Notes: generated by a model not told the origin, from the letters alone. A stretch of 64,000 nt of DNA from Minisyncoccota bacterium (GCA_028712445.1 JAQTPY010000001.1:50034-114033); one strand, 5' to 3'; counted from the stretch's first letter, positions 35,924-62,569 are shown. Program-made: numbers and translations.

Positions 35924-36025
35924 TGTGTAAAACTTTTTCCTTAAAGCTAATTTGTTCTTAAATTATCTAGTTGTTTCACGGTTTAAAATTTGGGGAAAAA
36001 AATTAAGTCGCCATTTATCCCCAGC

Positions 36026-42048: not shown

Positions 42049-42060
42049 AAATTCTTTAAT

Positions 42061-42678
42061 CTATTTTGTTATTTCCGGTGGAATTTCAGGATAATATCCC
42101 ACTTCTGATTCTTCGGGATGAAAAAGACTCCAAAACAACTCAATTAATTCAGGAGTGTTTAGGTGGCTGCACTGCAGGCCGCATCTTCTTAATCCTAAAG
42201 CGACAAATTCCATTCTCTGCCAAAGCTGGGATTTAGCTCTTTGAAAGTCGTCTTCCGTGGGCGTTGCAGTATTTGATTTTGTTCCAGGAATATTAAGAAC
42301 GTAAAATGGAACCAAAACATAGAAGGTTTTAGATAAAATCTGGCCTCCGGCAATAAGTTCTTTGATGAATTTCTGATATTCTTCAGTTTGTATTTTTAAG
42401 AGTTCGTTTTGCTGTTTTTGGGCCAAATCGCCAACTTTGTCTATGTATCCTGTAATGTTTAAAATTCTGGACTGGATAACGATTTCCAAGGGGAAATCCA
42501 GGGAATTTAAAAAGTTCTGGAATTGGAAAATGGTGGCTTCCTGTTCTTCAGCTGATTTTAAAGCAAAGTTTTGCGAGGACACGTTTAAAACTCCACGTAA
42601 AGATTTGTTCTTTAAATAGACAACCCCTTCTCTTATTTGTTCTATTTGTAAAAATTGTTGAGTGGATGATGAGGGCAT
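42061..42678 (-). CDS. virB4: VirB4/PrgJ N-terminal domain as a separate 205-aa ORF. It is in frame with 40267..42048 and separated from it only by a TAG plus 4 codons.
   Basis: GVVYLKNKSLRGVLNVSSQNFALKSAEEQEATIFQFQNFLNSLDFPLEIVIQSR matches the N-terminus of Gram-positive VirB4 proteins. Confidence 0.6.
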   Translation of the reverse strand: MPSSSTQQFLQIEQIREGVVYLKNKSLRGVLNVSSQNFALKSAEEQEATIFQFQNFLNSLDFPLEIVIQSRILNITGYIDKVGDLAQKQQNELLKIQTEEYQKFIKELIAGGQILSKTFYVLVPFYVLNIPGTKSNTATPTEDDFQRAKSQLWQRMEFVALGLRRCGLQCSHLNTPELIELFWSLFHPEESEVGYYPEIPPEITK

Positions 42679-42680
42679 GG

Positions 42681-42998
42681 TCAGGTTTTGGTTTTTAATT
42701 CGTATCTTTTATCTTGCTGTTTTTTCTTTTTCCAGATGTACATTTTAGGAGCGATAAAAAATTTTAAGACACTGCCAAGGGCCACTATAAAAGGACGGCC
42801 GTTGACTTTTATAAAAGACATGGCCAACGCTCCGCCGATAACAAAAACAGCAGCAATATAAAAGACAGGTCTGGGCAAAATGAAGTAAAGCAAAAAACAA
42901 ATTCCTCCTGCTCCGGCAATAAAAAGAAATTGGTTGAAGGTAAAAGGCCCAAATATTTTAGACTCGTATTCAATAAATTGTGGGACTGTAAAGCGCAT
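42681..42998 (-). CDS. PrgI-family (VirB3-like) small membrane protein.
   Basis: RFTVPQFIEYESKIFGPFTFNQFLFIAGAG plus two TM helices. Immediately upstream of virB4, as in Gram-positive T4SS loci. Confidence 0.55.
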   Translation of the reverse strand: MRFTVPQFIEYESKIFGPFTFNQFLFIAGAGGICFLLYFILPRPVFYIAAVFVIGGALAMSFIKVNGRPFIVALGSVLKFFIAPKMYIWKKKKQQDKRYELKTKT

Positions 42999-43015
42999 AA
43001 ATTAGTTTTTATTTT

Positions 43016-43522
43016 TTAGTCAATTTGTTCTCTATAACTATCGCTGGACGCAGATCTCTCTTTGACTATTGGGTTGGCTGTTTTCATCTGCAAACCGATT
43101 TCTTTCGGAACAAAAACTTTCTTTTTAGGAAGATTTTTTTCCTCAGAAACTTCGGGTTTGATTTCTTCTATGATCTTCTCTTCCGCCTTTTTATTTTTTT
43201 GAGAATAAAGAATTTCCAAAGATGCTTTTACCGGGAAGAATACATATCTGTTTATTTCTTCGGCAATTTGTTTTGCCTTTTCTTTTTCAACGTCCAGTTC
43301 TTTTTCAATCCTTTCTTGGAAGTTTTCCGGCGGCAAAATACCCAACAAAACCTCTCCAACCAACAGGGAGATGTCTGAAGGAAGATCAACCTCGTTCTTT
43401 TCGCAGACATTCCCAATGCTTTCAGCGGTGGAAGGCGAAAGCAAAGCTTCTTTGAGCTCTTGGGGGAGTTTTTCGTACAACTCCCAGTTTTTTTTAATAT
43501 TTTCTTGAGATAAGGTTGTCAT
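43016..43522 (-). CDS. Hypothetical cytoplasmic protein of the T4SS-like cluster.
   Basis: 168-aa acidic ORF between the virB6-like and prgI-like genes. Confidence 0.4.
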   Translation of the reverse strand: MTTLSQENIKKNWELYEKLPQELKEALLSPSTAESIGNVCEKNEVDLPSDISLLVGEVLLGILPPENFQERIEKELDVEKEKAKQIAEEINRYVFFPVKASLEILYSQKNKKAEEKIIEEIKPEVSEEKNLPKKKVFVPKEIGLQMKTANPIVKERSASSDSYREQID

Positions 43523-43589
43523 ATTGACATTTTTTAATAAATATGTTAATATTAGAACCAGAAAAATTTAATAAAGGAGGACTAATATC

Positions 43590-43976
43590 GTGGAATGGTG
43601 GGTATGGCTAATAATCGCAGGAGCTCTCGTTCTGGTAATCCTGGCTTTCTCCGGCAACACAACGGTTAAAAAGGTGATCAGGGCCAAGAAGGAGACACCT
43701 CCCCCGGCTCCGGAAGACCCTACGGAGGAAGAAAGAATCAGGTCCCGTATCCGGGAAGAACAAAGGATAGCGGCTTACTATCAGGGGCTTCTTTCTCCCG
43801 AACCGACAGACGTAAAGGGATTGGGGGAAAGGTTAAGGACTCTTCGTCTTCAGGGGAAACTTCTTTCTCAGCAGTATGAAAACAAAGAGCTTGAGAAGAA
43901 GATCCTGGCTGCCACTGAAGCCGCGGAAAAAAGCAATGAGGGATGGGAGCAAAAAATCAACGAGGGGAAACCATAG
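43590..43976 (+). CDS. Single-pass membrane-anchored Pro-rich protein (GTG start).
   Basis: A strong AAAGGAGG SD sits 9 nt before GTG. N-terminal TM WWVWLIIAGALVLVILAF. Convergent with the virB6-like gene. Confidence 0.45.
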   Translation: MEWWVWLIIAGALVLVILAFSGNTTVKKVIRAKKETPPPAPEDPTEEERIRSRIREEQRIAAYYQGLLSPEPTDVKGLGERLRTLRLQGKLLSQQYENKELEKKILAATEAAEKSNEGWEQKINEGKP

Positions 43977-43994
43977 CTAGCACTTTGCTATCTA

Positions 43995-44027
43995 GGGGTA
44001 GAAGGAAACTTCTACCCCCTATTTTTT
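43995..44027. terminator. Bidirectional terminator between the two convergent genes.
   Basis: ggggtagaag-gaaa-cttctacccc followed by ctatttttt. Confidence 0.65.
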
Positions 44028-44052
44028 ATAAGAACAAACCTTATTTTCTTTT

Positions 44053-46743
44053 TTATATTAATTTTTTATATTTTGCCAATTCTGCTTTTAGTTTTGCGTC
44101 TCCGTCGATTGTTTTTATCAGTTGAGTTAATTCGCCAGCTCTTTTTATTTGATTATTTGAGATTTCCGCAGGTATTGCCTGGCCCTTGTCTCGCATGGCC
44201 ACAATCACTTTTCCTAATTTTTTTGCTATTTCAGAACCTTCTACAAATTTTTTGATCTGTGGATTGTCTTCAAGTATTTTGTGAGCGTCAAGCTCTCGTT
44301 TCACGTCGCCCTTCCCTTTTTGCTTGCTCAATGTTTCTTTATATCGCTGCAACTGCCCTCTTGACAAAGGATCACTGTCGATAAAATCTCTGGCTTTAAA
44401 TATTTCTTCGTTTCTTTCTATTATCTGTTTTTGGATATCTTCTTTGGCAGGAACCTGTCCGTCAGCTATCGCTTTAAGTATGGAATTTTCATCACTGTCA
44501 ACGCTTTTTTGGTTTTCGATATATTCATTTAGCGGAGAATTGCTTTCCAAGATCTGTTTGGCGGCGACATTTCTTCCGAAATCTTTTTCATCGACGCCGG
44601 CAATTCCTACTCCAAGAGTTAAAGCAGGAGTGTCTATCAAGAACTTTGCTGCTTTGGCATTTCTCATTTTGTGGATTGTTTTTGTTTCAGGAAGTTTTGT
44701 GTTTGGGTTAATTTCAGTCCAAGATGTTTCTTCTATTTCCGTGAACCAATCAAGACCTTTTTTCTTAGCTTCGTTTATATAATCATCAGCGAATGGGGAA
44801 CCGAATTCTTCAACCATTTTACTGATCTTTTTGCCATCATAATTCTTGAGTATAGATTCTCTTATCGTCATTTCTTCTTTCCCAGTATCAGGATTAGTTG
44901 TTTTTGTTAACCAAGATCCGTCTTTAAAATCTTTAACCTCATCTCCACTTGTCTCAGCCCATATTTTATCAGTAAGCGTTCCGTATTTTGCCTGTTCTTC
45001 GGCGCTTAGTTCAAATCCCATCTTAGCCAAGTCATCATTGTTGAGGGTGTGCATAAAGCCCCTGGCCATCCTTTCGGCATCATCTTTTTTGCCAAGCCTG
45101 TTTGATGAAGCGGCTGAGGAGATGATTTCTTCTTTGCTTAATCTGCCCCTCTCAAACATATCCCAGACTCGTTTTTTGCTTTCTTTTCCTGCTTCAATTC
45201 CGCCGGCAATCAGACCGGTTAATTTTTCTTTATTGCCCAATCTTTTGGCCGCCATGATTTTTCTTTCCAGATTTTCAGGATCCTTAACGTCTTTTGCGTC
45301 TTTTTTGCCCACCTCAACCCCTGCCATGGTTTTTTCGCCAACGGTTGTGCCAGCCACCCTGTAACCAAAGTCAATCATGTTTCCTGCTCCTAGCCGCATT
45401 TTGTTTAACAAACCTACTTTTTGACCGCTGGCCACTTTCGCCCTTAAATCTTCTCTGGTATTTTGAGTGAATTCTCTCAAACCCCTGTCAGTTCTGCTCC
45501 TTAGCGCGCTCAAGCCCTTCTTTTTGGCCCAATTAAGCCCTTTATTTCCCCACTGGAGAACCGCTTCTGTTCCCCCGCCAGAGAATTTCAAAGTCACGAC
45601 GAAGCCGATTATCATAAAAGCAATAAAGGCGATCAAGACAAACGCGCCATTCATTATATAAGTAACGGGAGATATTATGATTTGCATAATTCCTTCTGCC
45701 CCTGTTTCGGTTATTTTAGGATAAGGTATGTCGGCCTTGGTTAAACGTCCCGCCAAGTAAAGGAAGAATCCTCCTATTGCTCCGATAAAAGACCATTGGA
45801 TGAAATAATTCAACCACATTTTGAAGACTTTTTGGGTGGTGGGTAGAATTTGGCAAAACCAGGCGATAGGGGCCAAGATGACCAAAATCCACAAAGCAAC
45901 TATTCTTATTGCAAAAATGGCAACATAAAGCAAAATAACGATTCCAGCCATAATCCCGAAAAGACTCATCATTACGGTGTCTATTATAAGAGTTATTATT
46001 TGTTGGGGATTTAGATATTTAACAAAAATATCCAAAATACTCGTCCATGTCTTAGTCGGTTCTATTTGAGTAATTTCCTCTCCATCTATGATAATGGTCG
46101 ATGTTTCGGGTTGCATTTGGTCAGCTAGGCCAGTAAAGACTGAAACAAAATCACCCAAAGGAGTTTTATTAAAGAACGTCATAAAATTATCTCCCAAATT
46201 TCCGATTAAAAAGTGTCGGGTTACTATATTGGCAATATCAATCACTATCCCGCAGAATACGGGAACAAAGTTTATTAAAAGAATAACGATGAGAAATTTG
46301 GGTAGAAGTTTTTTTAATCCATAGTTTTCTCTTCTTAAAATAGTGGCTATGGCAATTACAACCAAAACCAAAATAAAAATTAAATTTGCCAGCCCTGTAG
46401 TAACTCTTAGTCCTTCATCAACAATACCGCCACGGGTTGCGGAAAGAGAAACGAACGCCTCGCTGGTGACAAAGGTCAAAAGAGAAGTGCAAAGGGAGTA
46501 GAACGCAAATGACGATAAAGTTATAATTGTCGTTCCGACGATGATGATGGTTATCGGCATACCAAAAAACATCAAAAGAGGCAAATATTTTATATAGTCG
46601 CCAACGTCCATAATCCCTTTCCAGATATCGCTAAGACCGGCAGCGTTGGCAAAGTTAATTGTTGCAAAACTAAACAACAAAATTAACCCGAAACAAGAAA
46701 CTAAGGTTTTTTTGTTTGCTGAAAGTTTTTTGATCAGATCCAT
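44053..46743 (-). CDS. VirB6/TrbL-like polytopic membrane protein with a ~500-aa hydrophilic C-terminal extension.
   Basis: Signal peptide, then about 9 TM helices over ~400 aa, then a long Lys/Glu-rich soluble tail. First gene of the block. Confidence 0.55.
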   Translation of the reverse strand: MDLIKKLSANKKTLVSCFGLILLFSFATINFANAAGLSDIWKGIMDVGDYIKYLPLLMFFGMPITIIIVGTTIITLSSFAFYSLCTSLLTFVTSEAFVSLSATRGGIVDEGLRVTTGLANLIFILVLVVIAIATILRRENYGLKKLLPKFLIVILLINFVPVFCGIVIDIANIVTRHFLIGNLGDNFMTFFNKTPLGDFVSVFTGLADQMQPETSTIIIDGEEITQIEPTKTWTSILDIFVKYLNPQQIITLIIDTVMMSLFGIMAGIVILLYVAIFAIRIVALWILVILAPIAWFCQILPTTQKVFKMWLNYFIQWSFIGAIGGFFLYLAGRLTKADIPYPKITETGAEGIMQIIISPVTYIMNGAFVLIAFIAFMIIGFVVTLKFSGGGTEAVLQWGNKGLNWAKKKGLSALRSRTDRGLREFTQNTREDLRAKVASGQKVGLLNKMRLGAGNMIDFGYRVAGTTVGEKTMAGVEVGKKDAKDVKDPENLERKIMAAKRLGNKEKLTGLIAGGIEAGKESKKRVWDMFERGRLSKEEIISSAASSNRLGKKDDAERMARGFMHTLNNDDLAKMGFELSAEEQAKYGTLTDKIWAETSGDEVKDFKDGSWLTKTTNPDTGKEEMTIRESILKNYDGKKISKMVEEFGSPFADDYINEAKKKGLDWFTEIEETSWTEINPNTKLPETKTIHKMRNAKAAKFLIDTPALTLGVGIAGVDEKDFGRNVAAKQILESNSPLNEYIENQKSVDSDENSILKAIADGQVPAKEDIQKQIIERNEEIFKARDFIDSDPLSRGQLQRYKETLSKQKGKGDVKRELDAHKILEDNPQIKKFVEGSEIAKKLGKVIVAMRDKGQAIPAEISNNQIKRAGELTQLIKTIDGDAKLKAELAKYKKLI

Positions 46744-46762
46744 GCAAATAAAATATTAATCC

Positions 46763-46771
46763 ATTATACCA
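46763..46771 (-). promoter_or_regulatory. Extended -10 element (TGgTATAAT) upstream of the virB6-like gene.
   Basis: Reverse complement of attatacca, ~20 nt upstream of the ATG. Confidence 0.35.
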
Positions 46772-46791
46772 AAGCTGTTTCATCGCGCAAC

Positions 46792-46823
46792 AAAAAAAGG
46801 GCTAACAAGATTCTTGTTAGCCC
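46792..46823 (-). terminator. Rho-independent terminator after the 180-aa OB-fold gene.
   Basis: gggctaacaag-att-cttgttagccc with a T-run on the minus strand. Confidence 0.55.
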
Positions 46824-46846
46824 CAAGCCAACTAATGGTGCCGAAG

Positions 46847-47389
46847 TTAGTTGACTATTTTGCATTCGGCAAGCTCCACCCATGTGTCGGAGCTGCCCTT
46901 AAACACTCCCTGCACTATTACTGTGTCTCCCACCTTTACGCCGGTCGGGATAGTATTGAAGACGCATTGTACTTTGCTGAAAGATCCTGCCCAAAGCCAG
47001 ACTACCACGCTGTCTGAAAGCGTGTGGATTTCCTTGACAGTGCCCTTCACTAGCAACTCCTTATCTTTATATGCCGATGGATTGTTGTGACCTTCTTTGA
47101 AAATCTGATCAGCATACATTAGAGGGGGAGCAGAAGAAGGAGATGAAGGAGTGTCAGTAATTGTGGGTTTAGACAAAGTTGGTGGGCTGGTCGGCGGAGC
47201 TTTCGGAGTTGCTATGGGCGTGTTTGTTGAGGTTATAGCAACCGTAGGCGCAGAAGCACTAGCTTCGGGATTCATTGCGATTGCTTCTGACGTTGGCGTT
47301 GTCGCTGCGGTGTTGAAGGCAAAGAAGCCCCCAGCTGCAGCCAATAATATTGCGGAGAAGATTATTATAAAAACAAATCTTTTTTTCAC
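46847..47389 (-). CDS. Secreted or anchored protein: signal/TM, a Pro/Thr/Ser-rich linker, and a C-terminal OB-fold-like domain.
   Basis: N-terminal hydrophobic helix, ~70 aa of PTS-rich low complexity, then KELLVKGTVKEI...VVVWLW...VKVGDTVIVQGVF. Confidence 0.45.
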   Translation of the reverse strand: MKKRFVFIIIFSAILLAAAGGFFAFNTAATTPTSEAIAMNPEASASAPTVAITSTNTPIATPKAPPTSPPTLSKPTITDTPSSPSSAPPLMYADQIFKEGHNNPSAYKDKELLVKGTVKEIHTLSDSVVVWLWAGSFSKVQCVFNTIPTGVKVGDTVIVQGVFKGSSDTWVELAECKIVN

Positions 47390-47541
47390 TGGACACCTCC
47401 TTTTTCAGATGAAATTCGATGCTGTTTATACCCTACCAGAAATTTTGCGTTTTGTCAATAGTCAATAAGGATGTTCAGTTTTTAAACCAAATTTAACTTT
47501 CTACTTTGATTATTGCACAGTTTTCCTTCCTTTGGCAAAAA

Positions 47542-49746
47542 TTAAATAGGAAACTGCCACCATTTGCCAAAGATCTCAATTTGGAATCCCAGTAATGACA
47601 AGAGGAAAGTGACAATAAACCAGGCAGAAAAGACGATCAAAAATCCTTTGCCAAATGATTTCCAAATAGATTTGATTTTGCTCAAGGTGCCAGAATCCCC
47701 CATGGCAGTGTAATAAATTATGCCAGAGCCAGTCACCAGGAAAATCAATAAAATAGGAATCAGGGTCCAGAGGACAAAATCAAGAATGTTTCTGAAAATG
47801 TAGAAAATATCTTTAAATTCGCAAGGCCTGTGATCGTCATAAGGGGTGTCTGGGGAGTCGCAGTTCCTTCCGCAAGGAACCAGCCCTTTTTTGCATTCTT
47901 TATCTCCAGGAACCAAATTGAAAGAGAAATTGGCCCATTCTCCGGCGTCTTGGCAGTCTTTATCCAAGCAGGCCTTGACAGACCAGGAGTAGTTTTGAAA
48001 ATTTAAGTTCCCGGTTTCAAGAAAAGTTGAGTTCGTCCCAACAATGCCTTCGGGGCCTCCCGAAATCTTGTATTGATAATAGTTGGCTCCTTCCACAGGA
48101 TTCCAGGAAAGGTTTTTTTGATAAGAAATTAATTCTCCGCCGTTTGAGGGTTCAGGATTTGCCACTTGGGGAAGAGTGAAAGTAGTGAAATTTTTTACAG
48201 AGGAATTTCCGCAGATTTTAGCTTCCCTGTCAGCACAGGTTTTAAGAGCTAACCAATAGTTCGTTTTCGTTTTAAGGAGAGGATAATCGGCCAAAGGATT
48301 GGCTCCCGCGAAAGGAAGGAGGCCTGAAGACAAAATTTGAGAAAAGCTTCCATTAGATGAAAGCTCATAATAATAAGAGGCGGCTGCCGGCATTTGGTCA
48401 AAAGTCAAAGAAACGGGAATTAAGGGGAGCCCCTGGTTTCCGAAAGGGCTGATTTTAATGTTTGTTGGAGGAGCCCCTGTGGTTTTGAAAGTCAAGTTAT
48501 TAAAAATTTGTTCGCAATTGTTCCCTTTTTCGTCCCAACAAGAACTTAACTTCAAGGTGTAGCCTTGATTAAGTTCAAGTTTGTTCCAGATATCGCTGAA
48601 AGGAACGGAAGTGATTTCTCCCGAAGTGGTGGCGCTTATTATCGTCAGGCCGTTTTTTAAAATTTCATATCTGTAGGAGAGCACCCCTTTCAGCCCCATT
48701 GATTCCCAGGAGATGGAGTTTGAAAGATTGACCGTGTCTGAGTCTTTGGGGAAATTGATCACGGGAGCAAGAAGGTTCAGAGTGCCTGTGTTTATTTTCC
48801 AATATTGACTGAAATCTCCGCACTCTGAACCTTCTTGATTTTCCTTGCATTTTTCTCCGCAATCAGTGCCGTCCGCATTCAAACAGGCGGCGATTTCCCA
48901 AGAATAATCACTAAGCTTGGTAAAAATATCTGTCCCATATTCTATTTCCGAACTTTCAATGTTTTCTTTTTCATCGATGGGAACGGGAAAAAATATCTTT
49001 CCGTCTTTGTACAGCTTAAGAAAATATGATTCAGCGTCATTTACTGAGCACCAGTCAAGTTTCACTGGCACGGAAGTGTTTTGGGCGCTCTCTTCCCCTT
49101 GCCAGTCGGGGTCTTTCGGCGAAACTAGTTCTGGCGCCAGAGAGGTTTTTAAATTCCAGTTGCTGGAATTTCCACAGTTGGTTCCGTTGGCGTTGCAGCA
49201 AGCAGAGACATCCCAGTTATAAGAAGAATTGGAGTCAAGAAGACAAGAACCATTGTCTTCTTGGACATCATATTCAGATTTATTAATTATTTTTGAGACT
49301 ATCTTGTTGTAAATATTAATTACGTAAGATTTAGGTCCGGTAGACTCTCCCCAGCCTGCCACGTCGTTCCAATCCAGTTTTACGGGCAGCTTAATATTAT
49401 TTTTATCTACGCTTTTTGAAGACTGGTCTGAATAATAGGGATTATCGTAATACCTGTCGCCAGAAGGGGTTTCCAAGCATTCTCCCTGACAGGAACAGGA
49501 AGGCGGAGAGGCGCTGCATCTTTCCCAGGATTGGCATTCCTGGACTAATATGTCTTCGCATTCGCTTCCTCCACAGCAGGGCTCCCCGGGAGTCACGTAG
49601 CGGAGCTCTCCTTCGCAGCCTCCGGCGCAGTAATAATATCCTCCGCAGGGGCAAGGGATGCATTTTTCCCCCTCAGCTTTTGCTTGCTGAAAAAATAAAA
49701 AAATAAAAAACAGTAAAATAAAAAATATGAAAAACTTTTTCATCAT
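47542..49746 (-). CDS. Large Cys-rich surface protein: signal peptide, a CxC-rich module, about 5 tandem beta-sandwich-like repeats each closed by a Cys pair, and a C-terminal pilin-like 2-TM hairpin.
   Basis: Repeats end in ..SACCNANGTNCG.., ..AACLNADGTDCG.., ..SSCWDEKGNNCE.., ..KTCADREAKICG.., ..KACLDKDCQDAG... The C-terminus reads LLIFLVTGSGIIYYTAMGDSGTLSKIKSIWKSFGKGFLIVFSAWFIVTFLL. The start overlaps the ksgA stop (TAATG). Confidence 0.55.
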   Translation of the reverse strand: MMKKFFIFFILLFFIFLFFQQAKAEGEKCIPCPCGGYYYCAGGCEGELRYVTPGEPCCGGSECEDILVQECQSWERCSASPPSCSCQGECLETPSGDRYYDNPYYSDQSSKSVDKNNIKLPVKLDWNDVAGWGESTGPKSYVINIYNKIVSKIINKSEYDVQEDNGSCLLDSNSSYNWDVSACCNANGTNCGNSSNWNLKTSLAPELVSPKDPDWQGEESAQNTSVPVKLDWCSVNDAESYFLKLYKDGKIFFPVPIDEKENIESSEIEYGTDIFTKLSDYSWEIAACLNADGTDCGEKCKENQEGSECGDFSQYWKINTGTLNLLAPVINFPKDSDTVNLSNSISWESMGLKGVLSYRYEILKNGLTIISATTSGEITSVPFSDIWNKLELNQGYTLKLSSCWDEKGNNCEQIFNNLTFKTTGAPPTNIKISPFGNQGLPLIPVSLTFDQMPAAASYYYELSSNGSFSQILSSGLLPFAGANPLADYPLLKTKTNYWLALKTCADREAKICGNSSVKNFTTFTLPQVANPEPSNGGELISYQKNLSWNPVEGANYYQYKISGGPEGIVGTNSTFLETGNLNFQNYSWSVKACLDKDCQDAGEWANFSFNLVPGDKECKKGLVPCGRNCDSPDTPYDDHRPCEFKDIFYIFRNILDFVLWTLIPILLIFLVTGSGIIYYTAMGDSGTLSKIKSIWKSFGKGFLIVFSAWFIVTFLLSLLGFQIEIFGKWWQFPI

Positions 49747-58159: not shown

Positions 58160-59062
58160 TTAAGCAGAGAAAATCTTTAATTTTTCTTCTAGATCAATTT
58201 TAGGGTATAAATCTTGAGGATAGATTTCTATTAGTTTTATGTTGTGTTTTTGGCACAATTCTTTTTTTCTTTGGACAGATCGATCGTACTTGGGGCTATC
58301 ACTCGCCAAACCAAAATATTCAATGAAAATCATTTTGTTTTTTAAAACCACACTCCAGTCAGCTCTGTGATGAGTATTGGGGTAAGGAGTATTTCTTTGA
58401 TGTGCAATTCTATTTTCAAATAGCCAATTATCAATCAATAGTTCCGAAACGGAGTCGCAAGGGTGTCCATCGATAGACTTAGCGGTCATTCGTTTGTACA
58501 TCCTTTGATTATGAGAGCGATTTGGCTGTAATCCTGAGGATAATATGGTTTTATTCCACGATCCGAAGAATCTTATTCCGGCACCCTTAAGGCTTCCCAT
58601 TTCCCGTTGAGTGGGGACTCTTTTAAAATTCTCAAAAAAGTCATTTATGATTTTTATAATATTTTCTGGAGTGTAATATCCTATTTTTCCTCTTCTTCCC
58701 ACGTTTCCCAATCTTCGGCATCCTAAAGAGCAAAACTTTTGGTTAAGGCTTTTTGGAAACAAGCGGCCACATGTTAAGCATTTTTTAAATTCACTTCGTT
58801 TTTTAGGATGATTTTTGTTATTTATTGTTGCTGCGCAAGATTGAGAACAATAGTTATGGTTAGAAATATCATTTAAAACTCTTTCAAAAGACTTGCCACA
58901 ATTTTCACAGGTTAAAATTTTTCGTTTTTTTTTATGTTCAGATTGACATTTCTTCGAACAGAAAGTCTTCCAGCTAAGCTTTAAACTTTCGTTATAACGT
59001 CCCGTGCTTCGGAAAAATGGCTTTTTGCACGTCGCACAAAATATTTTTTTCAGTTCAGCCAT
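58160..59062 (-). CDS. Multi-zinc-ribbon protein with a C-terminal Vsr/DUF559-like (PD-(D/E)xK) endonuclease domain.
   Basis: Several CxxC...CxxC pairs N-terminally. The C-terminus reads SVSELLIDNWL...RIAHQRN...HRADWSVVLKNKMIFIEYFG, resembling the DUF559 TxxE...RQ...DF...IE.DG pattern. Confidence 0.45.
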   Translation of the reverse strand: MAELKKIFCATCKKPFFRSTGRYNESLKLSWKTFCSKKCQSEHKKKRKILTCENCGKSFERVLNDISNHNYCSQSCAATINNKNHPKKRSEFKKCLTCGRLFPKSLNQKFCSLGCRRLGNVGRRGKIGYYTPENIIKIINDFFENFKRVPTQREMGSLKGAGIRFFGSWNKTILSSGLQPNRSHNQRMYKRMTAKSIDGHPCDSVSELLIDNWLFENRIAHQRNTPYPNTHHRADWSVVLKNKMIFIEYFGLASDSPKYDRSVQRKKELCQKHNIKLIEIYPQDLYPKIDLEEKLKIFSA

Positions 59063-59199: not shown

Positions 59200-60084
59200 A
59201 TGGAAAACGTCAAAAAACCAATAGGCATAGTGGTTGATGAAGCAGCTGACTTAACCAAGGAGATAATTGATAAATACAATATAGGGGTGGTTCCTCTGAA
59301 TGTTCACTGGCCAGAAATCGAGAATATTCCTGGAGATAATATTTATCAAAAAATCAAAGAATTGGAAAAAAGAGGAGACAAGAGTTTCGGTAAAACCTCC
59401 CAACCATCCCCCAAAGCTTTTATTGATGTTTTCACTCGGCAGCTTGATTCCTTTGAGGAAATAATTTCTCTTTCCATTACTTCAAAGCATTCGGGCACCT
59501 ACAACTCCGCCTGCCAGGCAAAAAAGTTTATGGGAGAGAACGGGAACAGAATCTTTCCGGTAGATACTCTTAATGCTTCAGCCGGAACTTCTTTGATCGT
59601 CTTTAAATTAATTGATTTGGTTGAAAAGGGATTGAAGACAGAAGCCATATTAAAGGAATTGGAAGTTTTTATGTCTCAGATCCGCCTTTACATTTTAGTT
59701 GAAAGCCCAAGCAGGCTTGAAGCTTCAGGACGTCTTTCTCCAATGCTGGCTAATTGGTTCAGAAATTTTCAGAAAATGGGAATCAGGCCGCTGCTTGGTT
59801 TTAAAGAAGGAAAATTGGGGCCAATCGGAGTTAAAAAATCAAAAGACATGGTGAGCACTTTATTGGACGAATATGAGGGAAAGACAAAATCTTTCAGATC
59901 TGAGAATAAGAAGATATGGGTTGCCATTACCCATGGCGATGATGTGGCCGGAGCAGAAAAATTAAAAGGATTGCTTGAGGGGTTGGGAAACGTGGAAGTT
60001 AAGCTCGTTAATTTAGCTGATAACGTTTTGGGAACTTTGGTTGGCCCGGGAGCATTGGTTTTGGCTTGGGCTCCCGCAGGTTAA
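59200..60084 (+). CDS. fakB: DegV-family fatty-acid-binding protein (FakB-like).
   Basis: IGIVVDEAADL N-terminus and DegV-like length and motifs (SLSITSKHSGTYNSA). Confidence 0.7.
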   Translation: MENVKKPIGIVVDEAADLTKEIIDKYNIGVVPLNVHWPEIENIPGDNIYQKIKELEKRGDKSFGKTSQPSPKAFIDVFTRQLDSFEEIISLSITSKHSGTYNSACQAKKFMGENGNRIFPVDTLNASAGTSLIVFKLIDLVEKGLKTEAILKELEVFMSQIRLYILVESPSRLEASGRLSPMLANWFRNFQKMGIRPLLGFKEGKLGPIGVKKSKDMVSTLLDEYEGKTKSFRSENKKIWVAITHGDDVAGAEKLKGLLEGLGNVEVKLVNLADNVLGTLVGPGALVLAWAPAG

Positions 60085-60105
60085 TTTAAGGGCTTTAAAT
60101 TTCAT

Positions 60106-60176
60106 GGGGATATAGTAAAACGGCATTACGCAGCATTCGCATTGCTGAGGTCCGGGTTCAATTCCCGGTATCTCCA
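60106..60176 (+). tRNA. tRNA-Ala (anticodon CGC) with a G3:U70 pair.
   Basis: GGGGATA acceptor pairing with TATCTCC (G3-U70), anticodon loop TTCGCAT, T-arm CCGGG-TTCAATT-CCCGG. Confidence 0.75.
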
Positions 60177-60181
60177 CATTT

Positions 60182-62473
60182 ATGGAAGCATTTTGGATAA
60201 TAATCAGTTATATCGCAGGTTCTATTCCTTTTGGTTACATAATATCCAAATTCTCAGGAAAGAACATCTTAGAGGTGGGATGGAAAAAGACTTCAGGATC
60301 CAATGTTTTTAAAAATGTTGGAAAGAAGCAGGGAGTTTTAACCGGCCTATTTGATGTCGCCAAAGGTTATTTGGTGGTTTTTCTAGCTCAAAAATTAGGA
60401 TTTTCTTTGGAAATTCAAGTTTTTTCCGGCTTGGCTGCGATAGTCGGACACAATTGGTCAATTTTCTTAAAATTTTCTGGGGGCAGAGGGATAGGGACCT
60501 TCGGAGGAGTGGTTCTGGCTTTCTCTCCGCAGATTCTCGGAATAATAATTATTCCTTTCCTGATCATTTCTTTAATTTGGAATGCCGCAATCGGCACTCT
60601 TTTTATCTTGTTTTTGATAATATTTTTGTTTTTTTATCCCCCTCAATTTTTAAATTCAAAGGAAGTTGAAAGCTGCGGTTTGCTAACATTGTTTTCTCTC
60701 TTCCCCATATTTCTTAAAAGATTGAGTCCCCTGAAGGAACTGAAATTTGGAACCATGGTTTTGAACCGTTTGATTTTTGACGATAATGAACCGCATGGTT
60801 TTAGAATAAACAAATTCATTGCCGCTGTAAGAAAGGGGTCAGCAAAGCCCATCAAGGATACCCTTCTGGCGCCCCCTCAAATTACTTGGAAGGTGGCTCA
60901 ATATGGAGCCAGAGCCGCAAGTAAAGGAGCGAAGGTGGCCAAAGACGGTTTTAGAAAATATCTTCTAGGTGTTTCAGAAAAGCAAGTTTTGGAAATCAAT
61001 GCTTTTGATTTCAAAAACATGATGATTGCTGCTTCAAAAAAAATAGTCCTCCATCAAGAAGATATAAACAAAATAAATGTTTTTCCCGTTGCAGATAAAG
61101 ACACGGGATACAACCTGGCAGCTACTCTTTTGGGAATAGAAGGAACGCTTTCTCAGAAAAATTACGGAGATTTCCGTGAATTGGCTAAAGATATGAACGA
61201 AGCTGCTATGATAAATGCCAGAGGAAATGTAGGCATGATTTCTACAGGATATTTTGTTGAGCTTCTCGAAAGAATAAAACATCTGGAGTCTTTAGATGCC
61301 TTTCATTTGGCGTTTGCAATGCAAAGAGGAATTAAAGCGGCCCGGGAATCGATTGCCGAGCCGGTTGAGGGTACGATTCTCGACGCAATAGAAGCTGCTG
61401 GCGAAAAAGCCTTGGAGCTGTCTAGAAATCAGAAAGAAAAAAACATAATCAAGGTTCTGGACGAAGCTTACAGGGCCAGCCAATCAGCTCTGGAAAAAAC
61501 TCCGGAAAAACTGAAGATTCTGAAAGAAAACAATGTGGTGGATGCGGGGGCATTGGGGTTTGTTAAGATTTTGGAAGGATGGCTGGACAGCTTAAAAGGA
61601 AATAAAATTGAAATCAAACAGGAGGCAGGTCCTGCCGAACAACCGAAAGCCGAAGAAGAACTGAAGCTCAGATACGAAGTGGTGGCTCTTTTTAAAAGAT
61701 CCGAGGACATGAATCAGGAATCGTTAAAGGAGGAGCTTTCTTGTTTGGGCGACAGTCTGGAAGTAATCGCTTCGGATGATAAAATCAAATTTCACATTCA
61801 TTGCTCTGACCCCGACCTGATTGTAGAAAAAATCAAGGGGTTCCCAGATGTCCAATTTAAAGTGGAGGATATGCAATCCTCAGAGACTTTGGCTAAAAAC
61901 CCCCTGGGTTTGATAGTCGACTCAGAGATTATTAATTCGGGTCCTAATCCTTCTTTTAAAGATTTTTTGGCTGCCTATCAGAGGGAATTGGCTAAATATG
62001 AGAAAATTTTAGTGATCACAGTTTCTTCTAAAAAATCAGGATCTTACAGCGCAGCCAGGATTGCCCGTTCCACTTTCAGAAAGCCCGAGAAAACAAATAT
62101 TTATGTTTTTGATTCTTTTACTTTGTCCACCGCCGAAAAAATAGTTGTTTTGAAAGCCCGGGAACTAATCGGTCTCGGAAAATCAATGGAGGAAATAATT
62201 GAAGAGCTGAAAGTCTTTTGTTTAAAAATAAGGATGCTGGCCACTCCTCAAAAAGATTTTTCCCTGATTGAAAAAATAGGATTCAGGCCTTTATTTGAAC
62301 TCAAGAACGGAGCTTTTAAAATTTCCAAAATAGTTTTAGGAAGCAACCCAAAAGAAATTTTAGCCAGAGAGATTAAGTCCTGCCAGAGCAAAAGAAAGAT
62401 CACAGGCGTTATTTACGGGTCAGACGCAAAAGCAAAGAATTTGGAAGTGGCTTTTTGCTTGATTGACAATTAA
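60182..62473 (+). CDS. plsY-fakA: Fusion protein: N-terminal PlsY (glycerol-3-phosphate acyltransferase, acyl-phosphate dependent) joined to a FakA/YloV-like fatty-acid kinase (DAK2 domain plus a DegV-like C-terminus).
   Basis: Residues 1-200: AGSIPFGYII...SGSNVFKNVG...GHNWSIFLKFSGGRGIGT (PlsY). Then VADKDTGYNL / ARGNVGMISTGYF (DAK2), then C-terminal KILVITVSSKKSGSYSAA (DegV-like). Confidence 0.65.
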   Translation: MEAFWIIISYIAGSIPFGYIISKFSGKNILEVGWKKTSGSNVFKNVGKKQGVLTGLFDVAKGYLVVFLAQKLGFSLEIQVFSGLAAIVGHNWSIFLKFSGGRGIGTFGGVVLAFSPQILGIIIIPFLIISLIWNAAIGTLFILFLIIFLFFYPPQFLNSKEVESCGLLTLFSLFPIFLKRLSPLKELKFGTMVLNRLIFDDNEPHGFRINKFIAAVRKGSAKPIKDTLLAPPQITWKVAQYGARAASKGAKVAKDGFRKYLLGVSEKQVLEINAFDFKNMMIAASKKIVLHQEDINKINVFPVADKDTGYNLAATLLGIEGTLSQKNYGDFRELAKDMNEAAMINARGNVGMISTGYFVELLERIKHLESLDAFHLAFAMQRGIKAARESIAEPVEGTILDAIEAAGEKALELSRNQKEKNIIKVLDEAYRASQSALEKTPEKLKILKENNVVDAGALGFVKILEGWLDSLKGNKIEIKQEAGPAEQPKAEEELKLRYEVVALFKRSEDMNQESLKEELSCLGDSLEVIASDDKIKFHIHCSDPDLIVEKIKGFPDVQFKVEDMQSSETLAKNPLGLIVDSEIINSGPNPSFKDFLAAYQRELAKYEKILVITVSSKKSGSYSAARIARSTFRKPEKTNIYVFDSFTLSTAEKIVVLKARELIGLGKSMEEIIEELKVFCLKIRMLATPQKDFSLIEKIGFRPLFELKNGAFKISKIVLGSNPKEILAREIKSCQSKRKITGVIYGSDAKAKNLEVAFCLIDN

Positions 62474-62569
62474 AGTTATTCTGTTAAAATGAAGATGTTC
62501 CGCAATCTTGCGGATTCTTTTTTAGCGTTAAGCTAAAAACAAGCTCCGCTTATTTTTAATACAAACAAT

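What the first reader, a model, noticed from the sequence alone, without database searches (positions are those of the whole stretch)
59200..62473. Exogenous fatty-acid activation module: FakB (DegV), then a PlsY-FakA fusion, with tRNA-Ala in between
FakA/FakB phosphorylate free fatty acids to acyl-phosphate, which is exactly the substrate PlsY uses to acylate glycerol-3-phosphate. Here PlsY is covalently fused to a FakA-like kinase (DAK2 plus DegV-like C-terminus), directly downstream of a FakB-like binding protein. For an organism that probably cannot make fatty acids de novo, the fusion would channel scavenged host fatty acids straight into phospholipid synthesis. PlsY and FakA are normally separate proteins, so the fusion is architecturally unusual.
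Basis: partly seen in the sequence, partly recalled or inferred. Interest (0 to 1): 0.6.

Follow-up and report, generated by a model that had tools for sequence, protein, structure and literature searches.

The report
Membrane-anchored fatty-acid kinase fused to PlsY
An ultrasmall Paceibacterota (CPR) bacterium encodes one protein joining a divergent PlsY-type membrane acyltransferase to a fatty-acid kinase, next to a fatty-acid carrier gene, which offers a concrete and testable answer to how these bacteria, which lack the usual PlsX route, turn scavenged fatty acids into membrane lipid.

Summary
ORF 59200-60084 is a DegV/FakB-type protein, tRNA-Ala(CGC) lies at 60106-60177, and ORF 60182-62473 is one uninterrupted 763-aa protein made of a PlsY-family domain, FakA_N (Dak2), FakA_M and a DegV-like C-terminus. 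It is not a frameshift artefact. At least 120 non-redundant proteins and 15 species-level genomes, all Paceibacteria, share the architecture, and an independent assembly gives identical DNA.

Three corrections apply.
1. In the family the C-terminal domain is a complete FakB-like DegV domain, not canonical FakA_C. The family is therefore a PlsY-FakA(N+M)-FakB triple fusion.
2. In this window that domain is eroded. About 100 aa are deleted and the Thr, Arg and His motifs are lost, so the upstream standalone DegV is the likely fatty-acid carrier.
3. The fused PlsY belongs to a divergent paralogue class ("class C"). It keeps the acyl-phosphate site but replaces the whole glycerol-3-phosphate pocket (S35W, R45K, K104R, no His177 or Asn180). 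The acyl acceptor is therefore not established.

Only a 2017 aside on two PlsY-DegV fusions comes close in the literature. CPR papers explicitly ask where acyl-phosphate comes from without PlsX. I class this as a new variant of a known kind, of moderate to high interest.

The parts
59200..60084 (+). Standalone DegV/FakB-type fatty-acid-binding protein (294 aa; NCBI MDD5144624.1). It keeps the Thr (TSQPS), Ser (SKHSGTY) and Arg (SGRL) motifs. The carboxylate-binding His is Leu (TLVGPG).
   Evidence: Pfam DegV E 3.5e-44; TIGR00762 173.6 bits against cut-off 99.7. End-to-end matches to solved DegV/FakB structures. Motif table. Orthologues sit in the same position, with L, I or V at the His site, in L003, L004, L005 and L015.
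60106..60177 (+). tRNA-Ala(CGC). It is a conserved syntenic landmark directly upstream of the fusion gene, and its 3' end lies 4 nt before the fusion's ATG.
   Evidence: ARAGORN. The same tRNA-Pro(cgg)...tRNA-Ala(cgc)-fusion order is found in L003-L006, L008, L011, L012 and L015. Sequence read directly.
60182..60781 (+). PlsY-family seven-helix membrane domain (residues 1-200), of the divergent 'class C'. The acyl-phosphate site is kept (S40, H90, G100-G101-R102-G103). The G3P pocket is replaced (W34, K36, K44, R102, and no His or Asn in residues 159-192).
   Evidence: Pfam PF02660 107 bits. Below the NCBIfam PlsY equivalog cut-off, 96 against 137. phmmer alignment to aaPlsY 5xj5. 104-sequence alignment scored against the mutagenesis table of Li et al. 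2017. AF2 pLDDT above 90 and Foldseek TM 0.71 to 5xj5. Positive-inside count 15 against 0 K/R.
60782..60994 (+). Conserved basic linker or tether (residues 201-271; motifs NRLIFDxxE, FRIxK, PP..W..A.(F/Y)G), partly disordered.
   Evidence: Conserved columns in A1 and A2. AF2 pLDDT below 50 for residues 223-264.
60995..61612 (+). FakA_N (Dak2/DhaL-type) ATP-Mg2+ kinase domain (residues 272-477), with N299, D305, D307, T308, N349 and D454 conserved.
   Evidence: Pfam Dak2 E 2e-29. phmmer to S. aureus FakA_N and S. suis FakA. Residue roles from PMC9136124. These residues are invariant in the 71-sequence alignment. Foldseek TM 0.96, rmsd 1.3 A.
61667..61879 (+). FakA middle (dimerisation / Zn-site) domain (residues 496-566). 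His538-x-His540 are kept. The Cys of the Cys-His-His cluster is absent ('RYEVV').
   Evidence: Pfam FakA-like_M E 7.6e-12. Alignment to 7w7h_A. Literature on the triad or zinc finger.
61889..62473 (+). Eroded DegV-derived C-terminal domain (residues 570-763). Four in-frame deletions total about 100 aa. They remove strand beta-1 and the Thr motif, the GGR (Arg173-equivalent) loop, and the C-terminal HxGPG motif. Only the SxxSG motif remains.
   Evidence: Alignments A1 and A2. Custom HMM matches positions 39-241 of 287 only. Motif table: window 'DGPPSGS------' against 'DTSPSGAGRHGPG' in relatives. Pfam DegV match is partial, and TIGR00762 scores 71 against cut-off 99.7. AF2 pLDDT about 80 falling to about 50.
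62499..62514 (+). Terminator-like hairpin with a T-run, 26 nt after the fusion's stop codon. No such signal lies between DegV, the tRNA and the fusion.
   Evidence: Consensus scan. This is weak evidence, because the number of such sites in the region is not above the shuffled expectation.

Best explanation
This locus encodes a membrane-anchored, two-gene fatty-acid activation and acyl-transfer machine of a Paceibacterota (CPR) bacterium.

Proposed mechanism:
1. The soluble DegV protein (59200-60084) picks up a free fatty acid, as FakB does.
2. It presents the carboxylate to the FakA_N/FakA_M kinase part of the 763-aa protein. That protein is held on the cytoplasmic face of the membrane by its N-terminal PlsY-family domain and probably dimerises through FakA_M.
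3. ATP-dependent phosphorylation gives acyl-phosphate.
4. The tethered PlsY-family domain uses the acyl-phosphate at once to acylate a glycerol-phosphate-type acceptor, so the labile intermediate never has to diffuse. No PlsX, ACP or CoA is needed.

History: the protein descends from a triple fusion, PlsY(class C)-FakA(N+M)-FakB(DegV), that arose once in a Paceibacteria sublineage. In this genome the fused FakB domain has lost its fatty-acid-binding motifs through deletions. It now most likely acts as an inert relic or, like canonical FakA_C, as a docking surface for the standalone DegV.

Shown: domain identities, folds, topology, conservation of the kinase and acyl-phosphate sites, erosion of the fused DegV domain, synteny and phyletic spread.
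Inferred: the enzymatic activities, channelling, the docking role of the relic domain and the identity of the acyl acceptor.
For: - Domain content and order; folds.
- Kinase residues N299, D305, D307, T308, N349 and D454 are invariant.
- The acyl-phosphate-binding residues of PlsY are kept (T41->S, which retains 45% activity in aaPlsY; H92; the loop-3 GG[K/R]G).
- Topology is N-out, C-in, which places the kinase in the cytoplasm.
- S. aureus FakA_N+L without FakA_C is still an active kinase on free FakB, with a 10-fold higher KM. FakA_C is itself a FakB-like domain that docks FakB and lacks the Arg.
- The standalone DegV keeps the Thr, Ser and Arg motifs.
- The same division of labour, a degenerate fused DegV domain plus intact standalone DegVs, recurs in Minisyncoccales including cultivated M. 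archaeiphilus.
- The fak-like genes cluster with plsY paralogues throughout Paceibacteria.
- The triple fusions form one clade.
- DegV, tRNA-Ala and the fusion are syntenic in several species.
- CPR relatives (Nealsonbacteria) have PlsY and PlsC but no PlsX or ACP. L003 and L017 are Nealsonbacteria that carry the fused or adjacent form.
Against: - The fused PlsY domain lacks all residues of the aaPlsY G3P pocket (S35W, N37K, R45K, K104R, no His177 or Asn180). In aaPlsY such changes cost more than 90% of activity. G3P may therefore not be the acceptor.
- The Cys of the FakA_M Cys-His-His cluster, needed for activity in S. aureus and S. suis, is absent.
- The standalone DegV has Leu in place of the carboxylate-binding His.
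- The relic C-domain may not fold. AF2 confidence is only moderate and may be inflated by the alignment.
- pTM is 0.46, so there is no information on inter-domain geometry.
- There are no biochemical data for any member.
- I could not determine whether a canonical class-A PlsY exists elsewhere in this genome.
Confidence: 0.62

Rival explanations
1. The chemistry up to acyl-phosphate is the same, but the class-C PlsY domain is not a G3P acyltransferase. It transfers the acyl group to another acceptor, such as 1-acyl-G3P (the sn-2 step, replacing an acyl-ACP- or acyl-CoA-dependent PlsC) or a scavenged lysophospholipid or glycerophosphodiester. A canonical class-A PlsY elsewhere in the genome would do the G3P step.
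For: - The whole G3P pocket is replaced, yet the replacements (W34, K36, K44, R102, T139, K179, R180) are nearly invariant across about 45 fused and unfused class-C sequences. That means a selected, different site rather than decay.
- Class C co-occurs with a fully canonical class-A PlsY in the same gene cluster in many relatives (L020, L038-L064 and others).
- CPR lack ACP and PlsX, so PlsC has no obvious acyl donor. CPR are enriched in lysolipids.
Against: - No class-A PlsY lies within 10 kb of any triple-fusion locus or in the 64-kb window. Class C might therefore be the only PlsY there and have to use G3P.
- The pocket stays basic, which is compatible with a phosphate-bearing acceptor including G3P bound differently.
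- There is no experimental precedent for a PlsY-family enzyme with another acceptor.
Confidence: 0.25
2. The PlsY-like domain is no longer an acyltransferase. It serves only as a membrane anchor, or as a lateral gate for extracting fatty acids from the bilayer, for a membrane-tethered fatty-acid kinase. The acyl-phosphate is released for other enzymes.
For: Loss of the G3P-pocket residues and of motif 3. FakB is known to exchange fatty acids at the membrane surface.
Against: The acyl-phosphate site residues (H90, S40, N41, loop 3 GGRG) and many other polar intramembrane residues are invariant. That is unnecessary for a mere anchor. Class C also exists widely as a standalone 216-226-aa protein, so it has a function of its own.
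Confidence: 0.08
3. The window's gene is a decaying copy. The deletions in the C-terminal domain mark loss of function of the whole protein in this lineage.
For: Four in-frame deletions remove about 100 aa and three of four FakB motifs. This is unique among the 16 triple fusions surveyed, and among the 120 nearest clusters none that is not a fragment or the same sequence is as short.
Against: There is no stop or frameshift in 2.3 kb. The first 570 residues keep every family-invariant and catalytic residue. All deletions are in frame and confined to the one domain that is dispensable for catalysis in S. aureus FakA. An intact standalone DegV lies directly upstream. Comparable erosion occurs in L066, L069 and all Minisyncoccales kinases.
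Confidence: 0.05

Closest known systems
Fatty acid kinase FakA/FakB feeding PlsY (Staphylococcus aureus, Streptococcus; PDB 7W7H, 7RM7, 6W6B, 5WOO)
   Same: A Dak2-type ATP domain with the same Mg2+/nucleotide residues, a FakA middle domain with the His-x-His pair, a DegV-family fatty-acid carrier with the Thr/Ser/Arg motifs, and acyl-phosphate as the expected product used by a PlsY-family enzyme.
   Different: Here the kinase is covalently joined to the membrane acyltransferase. The canonical FakA_C docking domain is replaced by a true DegV domain, which is intact in the family and eroded in this window. The Cys of the Cys-His-His cluster is missing. The carrier lacks the conserved His. No PlsX or ACP branch is expected.
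PlsY-DegV fusions of Bellilinea caldifistulae and Thermanaerothrix daxensis (UniProt A0A0P6X7I7, A0A0P6XUK7), noted by Li et al. 2017 (PMC5700162)
   Same: A DegV/FakB-type domain fused C-terminally to PlsY. The authors read it as evidence for acyl-phosphate channelling between FakB and PlsY.
   Different: As described, those two proteins have no kinase (Dak2/FakA_M) module between PlsY and DegV. They come from thermophilic Anaerolineae and were explained by heat-lability of acyl-phosphate. I could not retrieve their sequences, so the class of their PlsY is untested.
FakA(N+M)-DegV two-module proteins (about 590-615 aa) of other Paceibacteria, Minisyncoccales (including Minisyncoccus archaeiphilus PMX.108) and Bacteroidales MAGs
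   Same: The same kinase plus DegV-derived C-domain architecture, and the clear evolutionary source of the triple fusion. In Patescibacteria they are clustered with class A, B and C plsY genes and standalone degV genes.
   Different: No PlsY domain in the same polypeptide. In Minisyncoccales the DegV-like domain has degenerated by substitution. In Bacteroidales it is intact and the Cys is kept.
Canonical PlsY, acyl-phosphate:glycerol-3-phosphate acyltransferase (Aquifex aeolicus, PDB 5XJ5-5XJ9)
   Same: The seven-helix fold (TM 0.71, 30% identity), N-out/C-in topology, and the acyl-phosphate 'phosphate hole' (His92, loop 3) with the Thr41-type hydroxyl.
   Different: The G3P phosphate clamp and 2-OH binders are all replaced: Ser35, Arg45, Lys104, Asn180 and His177 become Trp, Lys, Arg, no Asn and no His. 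Asn37 becomes Lys. A roughly 70-aa basic linker and 500 further residues follow TM7.

Membership tests
PlsY (PF02660 / TIGR00023, acyl-phosphate:G3P acyltransferase) | Sequence match to the family model above the curated threshold | tested here: inconclusive
   Pfam PF02660 scores 107.3 bits against a gathering score of 24.1, so that is met. The NCBIfam equivalog TIGR00023 scores 96.2 against cut-off 137.2, and all PRK144xx models are below their cut-offs, so those are not met.
PlsY (PF02660 / TIGR00023, acyl-phosphate:G3P acyltransferase) | Seven-transmembrane-helix PlsY fold, N-terminus outside and C-terminus cytoplasmic | tested here: met
   The AF2 model has 7 helices at pLDDT above 90. 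Foldseek to 5xj5 gives TM 0.71. K+R count is 15 in predicted cytoplasmic loops against 0 in outer loops.
PlsY (PF02660 / TIGR00023, acyl-phosphate:G3P acyltransferase) | Acyl-phosphate site: Thr41 hydroxyl, His92, loop-3 G-G-K-G-V-A backbone | tested here: met
   S40, H90 and G100-G101-R102-G103-I104-G105 are conserved in all class-C sequences.
PlsY (PF02660 / TIGR00023, acyl-phosphate:G3P acyltransferase) | G3P pocket: phosphate clamp Ser35, Arg45, Lys104, Asn180, plus His177 (and Ser142, Asn37) | tested here: not met
   The window has W34, K44 and R102, no His or Asn anywhere in residues 159-192, and K36 for Asn37. Class-A paralogues in related loci keep all of these residues.
PlsY (PF02660 / TIGR00023, acyl-phosphate:G3P acyltransferase) | Catalyses G3P + acyl-phosphate -> lysoPA | not testable with these tools
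   Needs an enzyme assay or complementation.
FakA (fatty acid kinase catalytic subunit; NF038248 / TIGR03599 YloV) | Dak2/DhaL-type N-domain with Asn32, Asp38, Asp40, Thr41, Asn82, Asp185 (S. aureus numbering) | tested here: met
   N299, D305, D307, T308, N349 and D454 are invariant in 71 sequences. Foldseek TM 0.96, rmsd 1.3 A to 7RM7/8VIT.
FakA (fatty acid kinase catalytic subunit; NF038248 / TIGR03599 YloV) | Middle domain with the Cys-His-His cluster (catalytic triad or zinc finger) | tested here: inconclusive
   PF21645 is matched. H538 and H540 are invariant, but the Cys position is lost ('RYEVV' against 'GYCTE'). A few family members (P0104, P0120, L017) keep Cys.
FakA (fatty acid kinase catalytic subunit; NF038248 / TIGR03599 YloV) | Canonical FakA_C FakB-docking domain, and a full-length match to the FakA/YloV models | tested here: not met
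   The YloV and FakA models match only their first ~300 of 530-549 positions. Scores are 238 against 396 and 146 against 975. The match to full-length FakA 7w7h_A ends at residue 318-321. The C-domain is PF02645 DegV.
FakB / DegV (PF02645, TIGR00762) - standalone ORF 59200-60084 | Full-length DegV match above the curated cut-offs | tested here: met
   Pfam 151.7 bits against 27; TIGR00762 173.6 against 99.7. End-to-end matches to DegV/FakB structures. It is below the FakB1 equivalog cut-off, 95.7 against 350.
FakB / DegV (PF02645, TIGR00762) - standalone ORF 59200-60084 | Carboxylate-binding Thr, Ser and His plus the essential Arg (S. suis T61, S93, H264, R170) | tested here: inconclusive
   Thr (TSQPS), Ser (HSGT) and Arg (SGRL) are present. 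His is Leu, as in the syntenic orthologues of L003, L004, L005 and L015.
FakB / DegV - fused C-terminal domain of the window protein (residues 570-763) | Complete DegV fold with the Thr, Ser, Arg and His motifs | tested here: not met
   It matches only profile positions 62-159 of 280 (Pfam), or 39-241 of 287 (family HMM). TIGR00762 scores 71 against 99.7. The Thr, Arg and His motifs are deleted. In 13 of the 15 other triple fusions all four motifs are present.

The most novel reading that the evidence does not exclude
The class-C PlsY domain that became fused to the kinase is a previously unrecognised acyl-phosphate-dependent acyltransferase with a remodelled acceptor pocket. It would acylate lysophosphatidate at sn-2, or re-acylate scavenged lysophospholipids. 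Together with a canonical class-A PlsY, this would give Patescibacteria a complete ACP- and CoA-independent route from host fatty acids or lysolipids to diacyl membrane lipids. The triple fusion would then be a one-polypeptide 'bind, phosphorylate, transfer' machine and natural proof of acyl-phosphate channelling.
Probability: 0.25. Interest if true: 0.85.

Novelty: new variant of a known kind. Interest (0 to 1): 0.62.

Why it matters
Patescibacteria/CPR make up a large share of bacterial diversity, lack fatty-acid synthesis, and still have ordinary ester-lipid membranes. Three papers state the gap directly:
- Probst et al. 2020: without PlsX, the source of acyl-phosphate for PlsY is unknown.
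- The PNAS 2024 perspective: lipid uptake mechanisms "have not been identified".
- The IJSEM 2025 paper: how the only cultivated Minisyncoccus acquires fatty acids "remains unclear".

The fak-plsY clusters, and in this lineage their fusion into one protein, give a specific gene-level answer. It can be tested by heterologous expression.

For lipid enzymology, a natural PlsY-FakA-FakB polypeptide is the strongest genomic argument so far that labile acyl-phosphate is handed over directly rather than released. The series from intact to eroded DegV domain shows how a substrate-carrier domain can turn into a docking domain, as canonical FakA_C presumably once did.

The remodelled acceptor site of class-C PlsY points to an uncharacterised enzyme activity. 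In practice, the current annotation ('glycerol-3-phosphate acyltransferase') hides the kinase and may name the wrong acceptor.

Tried and rejected
- Frameshift or missed stop as the origin of the fusion. Rejected: continuous ORF, conserved linker, more than 120 homologues with the same architecture, and an identical independent assembly.
- C-terminal domain as canonical FakA_C. Rejected: the FakA/YloV models and 7w7h_A stop at about residue 320, and family members match DegV end to end with all FakB motifs.
- Standalone DegV as a compensation specific to the eroded window copy. Rejected: L003, L004, L005 and L015 have the same upstream DegV with an intact fused DegV.
- Several independent fusion events. 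Not supported: all triple fusions form one clade in an NJ tree of the kinase domain. This is a distance tree without support values.
- Extending the genomic context beyond the window to look for a canonical PlsY, PlsC, PlsX or fab genes. Failed: the NCBI contig is not retrievable through the look-up of encoding contigs, which gave only short Logan contigs.
- Looking for other lipid genes in the window. None among the 40 largest ORFs, which are origin-region housekeeping genes. Smaller ORFs were not scanned.
- Literature search for a prior description of a PlsY-FakA fusion, or of Fak in CPR (seven searches). Only the 2017 PlsY-DegV aside was found. The library lacks most subscription-journal papers, so this is not exhaustive. 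Broussard et al. 2016 on FakB residues could not be opened.
- Promoter and terminator scan. Site counts are not above the shuffled expectation, so operon structure remains an inference.
- AF2 inter-domain geometry. pTM 0.46, so not interpretable.

Full report
**1. The observation**

- ORF 59200-60084 (+, 294 aa) is a full-length DegV-family protein. Pfam gives E 3.5e-44, and TIGR00762 gives 173.6 bits against a cut-off of 99.7.
- ARAGORN places tRNA-Ala(CGC) at 60106-60177.
- ORF 60182-62473 (+, 763 aa) is a single frame with four Pfam domains in order: G3P_acyltransf/PlsY (8-165), Dak2 (302-468), FakA-like_M (496-566) and a partial DegV match (589-688).

The fusion is real.
- The 120 best non-redundant homologues all carry the same four Pfam domains.
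- Fifteen species-level genomes carry it as one ORF.
- The inter-domain linker is conserved.
- A Logan assembly of run SRR22315508 is identical to the window over 3352 nt.

An AlphaFold2 model built on 71 homologues has mean pLDDT 81.5. Foldseek recovers S. aureus FakA_N (TM 0.96, rmsd 1.3 A), Aquifex PlsY (TM 0.71) and FakB/DegV structures (TM about 0.5).

Exact look-up shows that the window is part of a 197-kb contig of a deposited MAG, "Candidatus Paceibacterota bacterium". There the fusion (MDD5144625.1) is annotated only as "glycerol-3-phosphate acyltransferase".

**2. What the family is**

The NCBIfam FakA and YloV models, and the solved full-length FakA (7W7H), align only to their first ~300-320 residues. 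What follows in the family is not the canonical FakA C-domain. It is a complete DegV domain.
- Pfam profile positions 3-279 of 280 are matched, with E 1e-46 to 1e-53.
- It matches solved FakB1, FakB2 and DegV structures end to end.
- In 13 of 16 triple fusions it keeps all four functional motifs: the Thr of TSxPS, the Ser of SxLSG, the Arg of GGR and the His of HxGPG. These are the residues that bind the fatty-acid carboxylate (H264, T61, S93), plus the Arg that is essential for phosphotransfer.

The family is therefore a triple fusion, PlsY-FakA(N+M)-FakB.

This makes mechanistic sense. In S. aureus, FakA_C is a FakB-like domain whose job is to dock FakB. FakA_N+L alone is an active kinase with a ten-fold higher KM for FakB. 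Tethering FakB covalently removes the need for a docking domain.

**3. What is special about the window copy**

Most relatives are 814-920 aa. The window protein is 763 aa, and the only shorter entries are a fragment and the same sequence with another start. The missing ~100 residues are four in-frame deletions, all inside the DegV domain. They remove:
- strand beta-1 and the Thr motif;
- the loop with the GGR arginine;
- the C-terminal HxGPG segment.

Only the SxxSG motif remains. The family HMM matches positions 39-241 of 287 only. The domain therefore cannot present a fatty acid as FakB does.

The upstream standalone DegV keeps the Thr, Ser and Arg motifs and is the obvious carrier.

The relic may still fold (pLDDT about 80, falling to about 50). 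It could serve as a docking surface like FakA_C, which also lacks the Arg. That role is inference.

The standalone DegV is not a special compensation. It sits in the same tRNA-Pro/tRNA-Ala slot in L003, L004, L005 and L015, where the fused domain is intact.

The same end state recurs in all Minisyncoccales loci, including cultivated Minisyncoccus archaeiphilus. There the fused DegV-like domain is degenerate ('DIEISNN--NCPE') and 2-3 intact degV genes follow it.

**4. The kinase**

The Mg2+/nucleotide ligands of S. aureus FakA_N are Asn32, Asp38, Asp40, Thr41, Asn82 and Asp185. They correspond to N299, D305, D307, T308, N349 and D454, all invariant in the 71-sequence alignment.

In the middle domain the His-x-His pair (H538, H540) is invariant. 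The Cys of the Cys-His-His cluster is missing here and in most relatives. That cluster has been called a catalytic triad in one study and a zinc finger in another. This is an unexplained departure.

**5. The PlsY domain is not canonical**

I aligned 104 PlsY domains from the window and 80 related loci with Aquifex PlsY. I then read off the residues that Li et al. 2017 defined by structure and mutagenesis. Three classes emerge.
- **Class A** keeps everything: S35, N37, T41, R45, H92, K104, H177, N180, R183 and E189.
- **Class B** has T41->L and lacks motif 3.
- **Class C** reads W35, K37, S41, K45, H92 and GGRG, and has 'KRLSP' where motif 3 should be.

Every fused PlsY, including the window's, is class C.
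- The acyl-phosphate site is kept: S40 (T41S retains 45% activity in aaPlsY), H90 and the loop-3 backbone.
- The G3P phosphate clamp (Ser35, Arg45, Lys104, Asn180) and the 2-OH ligand His177 are all replaced.
- Residues 159-192 contain no His or Asn at all, so this conclusion does not depend on the alignment.

In aaPlsY such substitutions cost more than 90% of activity and raise the G3P Km 5- to 36-fold. The replacements are themselves nearly invariant across about 45 fused and unfused class-C sequences. This is a selected, different site, not decay.

The domain scores above Pfam's threshold but below the NCBIfam PlsY equivalog cut-off. I therefore file it as a PlsY-family acyl-phosphate-binding membrane enzyme whose acceptor is unproven.

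Topology is N-out, C-in: seven helices, with 15 K/R in the predicted cytoplasmic loops against none outside. It matches the cytoplasm-facing active site of aaPlsY, so the kinase is cytoplasmic.

**6. Evolutionary and genomic context**
- FakA(N+M)-DegV proteins without PlsY (about 590-615 aa) are widespread in Paceibacteria and Minisyncoccales. They also occur in Bacteroidales MAGs.
- In Patescibacteria they sit in clusters with plsY genes. The Minisyncoccales pattern is plsY(A) - about 1.3 kb - fakA(N+M)-degV* - degV - degV - plsY(B) - plsY(C). Other genomes have plsY directly before (L017) or after (L026, L033, L066, L069) the kinase gene.
- In an NJ tree of the kinase domain rooted on Bacteroidales, all triple fusions form one clade. 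L017 (split) and L016 (cut by the contig end) lie inside it, and the window is nested within it. That fits a single fusion event.
- The family has at least 120 clusters at 90% identity, but only about five representatives at 50% identity among 1.84 billion. It is compact.
- Synteny is conserved: tRNA-Lys, tRNA-Arg, the CCA-adding enzyme gene, tRNA-Pro, an optional degV, tRNA-Ala, then the fusion.
- The 64-kb window is the replication-origin region. It holds dnaA, dnaN, the F-ATPase operon, a Mur ligase, a PBP, PilB, YidC, PNPase and NusA. No fab, acpP, plsX, plsC or cdsA is found among the 40 largest ORFs.

**7. How it most likely works**

See the best explanation. In short, DegV binds a fatty acid and the membrane-tethered kinase phosphorylates it. 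The adjoining PlsY-family domain then takes the acyl-phosphate and acylates a glycerol-phosphate-type acceptor, without PlsX, ACP or CoA.
- Shown: identities, folds, site conservation, topology and context.
- Inferred: all activities, the hand-over and the acceptor.

The main rival is that class C uses a different acceptor. It keeps the same first steps.

**8. Comparison with what is known, and novelty**
- The Fak-PlsY pathway is well characterised in Firmicutes.
- Li et al. 2017 noted two PlsY-DegV fusions in thermophilic Anaerolineae. They took them as a hint of FakB-to-PlsY channelling.
- I found no paper describing a PlsY-FakA(-FakB) fusion, the class-C PlsY, or a Fak system in CPR. The library is incomplete, so this is not proof of absence.
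- CPR papers pose the matching question. [quoted passage not shown] Loci L003 and L017 are Nealsonbacteria and carry exactly this module.
- Reviews state that lipid uptake mechanisms are unidentified, and that fatty-acid acquisition by M. archaeiphilus is unclear.

I class the finding as a new variant of a known kind. The chemistry is known. What is new:
- an undescribed three-in-one architecture;
- a divergent acyltransferase class;
- within this window, a derived state in which the fused carrier domain has decayed.

Interest is moderate to high. The finding makes an acknowledged open question directly testable.

Noticed in passing
L049 7976-15365 (Minisyncoccus archaeiphilus PMX.108, NZ_AP038758.1); likewise L038-L064: A conserved cluster with three distinct PlsY paralogue classes: A canonical; B with T41->L and no motif 3; C with a remodelled G3P pocket. 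They flank a FakA(N+M)-degenerate-DegV gene and 2-3 intact degV genes. The organism parasitises an archaeon whose lipids are not fatty-acid based, so the substrate source is puzzling. The species description does not mention the cluster.
   Followed up: partly
L068, L070, L072, L074-L080 (Bacteroidales and Sphingobacteriia MAGs): About 600-aa FakA(N+M) proteins fused to an intact DegV/FakB domain. All four FakB motifs and the Cys of 'RYCTE' are kept. This looks like a natural FakA-FakB fusion outside Patescibacteria.
   Followed up: partly
window 60177-60182; also L015 (1-nt gap), L011, L004, L008: The fusion's start codon lies 4 nt after the 3' end of tRNA-Ala, with no room for a Shine-Dalgarno sequence. 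Similar abutment occurs in several relatives. This suggests co-transcription with the tRNA and a nearly leaderless mRNA after tRNA 3' processing.
   Followed up: partly
window 58160-59062 (-): A 300-aa Cys-rich ORF with a borderline match to the homing-endonuclease-associated HNH_repeat (E 2e-05, 25.3 bits against cut-off 26). It lies between tRNA-Pro and degV. It is absent from this slot in L003, L005 and L015, so it may be a mobile insertion.
   Followed up: no
window 59200-60084; L003 9797-10684, L004 477-1364, L005 7577-8470, L015 9803-10687: The standalone DegV subfamily in the tRNA-Pro/tRNA-Ala slot always has L, I or V in place of the carboxylate-binding His of FakB (HxGPG), while keeping the Thr, Ser and Arg motifs. 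About 13 of 77 standalone DegVs surveyed share this trait. The effect on ligand binding is unknown.
   Followed up: partly
L017 6252-9055 (Ca. Nealsonbacteria CG11): PlsY (223 aa, with intermediate motif T35, Q37, T41, R45) and FakA(N+M)-DegV (638 aa, with the basic linker at its N-terminus) are separate ORFs 220 nt apart. Yet they nest inside the triple-fusion clade. This is either a secondary split or a sequencing frameshift.
   Followed up: no
L066 9980-11653, L069 9980-11620: FakA(N+M)-DegV proteins whose DegV domain lacks its first ~65-70 positions and all FakB motifs. This is independent erosion by deletion, similar to the window.
   Followed up: partly
window 34781-37375 (-), GC-skew turn near 36-38 kb: dnaA and dnaN with a change of cumulative GC-skew trend. 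The window probably spans the chromosomal replication origin.
   Followed up: no
window 40270-49746 (-): A TraG/VirB4-like P-loop ATPase (40270-42048) followed by large ORFs with no Pfam match (44056-46743, 896 aa; 47545-49746, 734 aa). This may be part of the Patescibacteria type IV secretion-like or surface apparatus.
   Followed up: no
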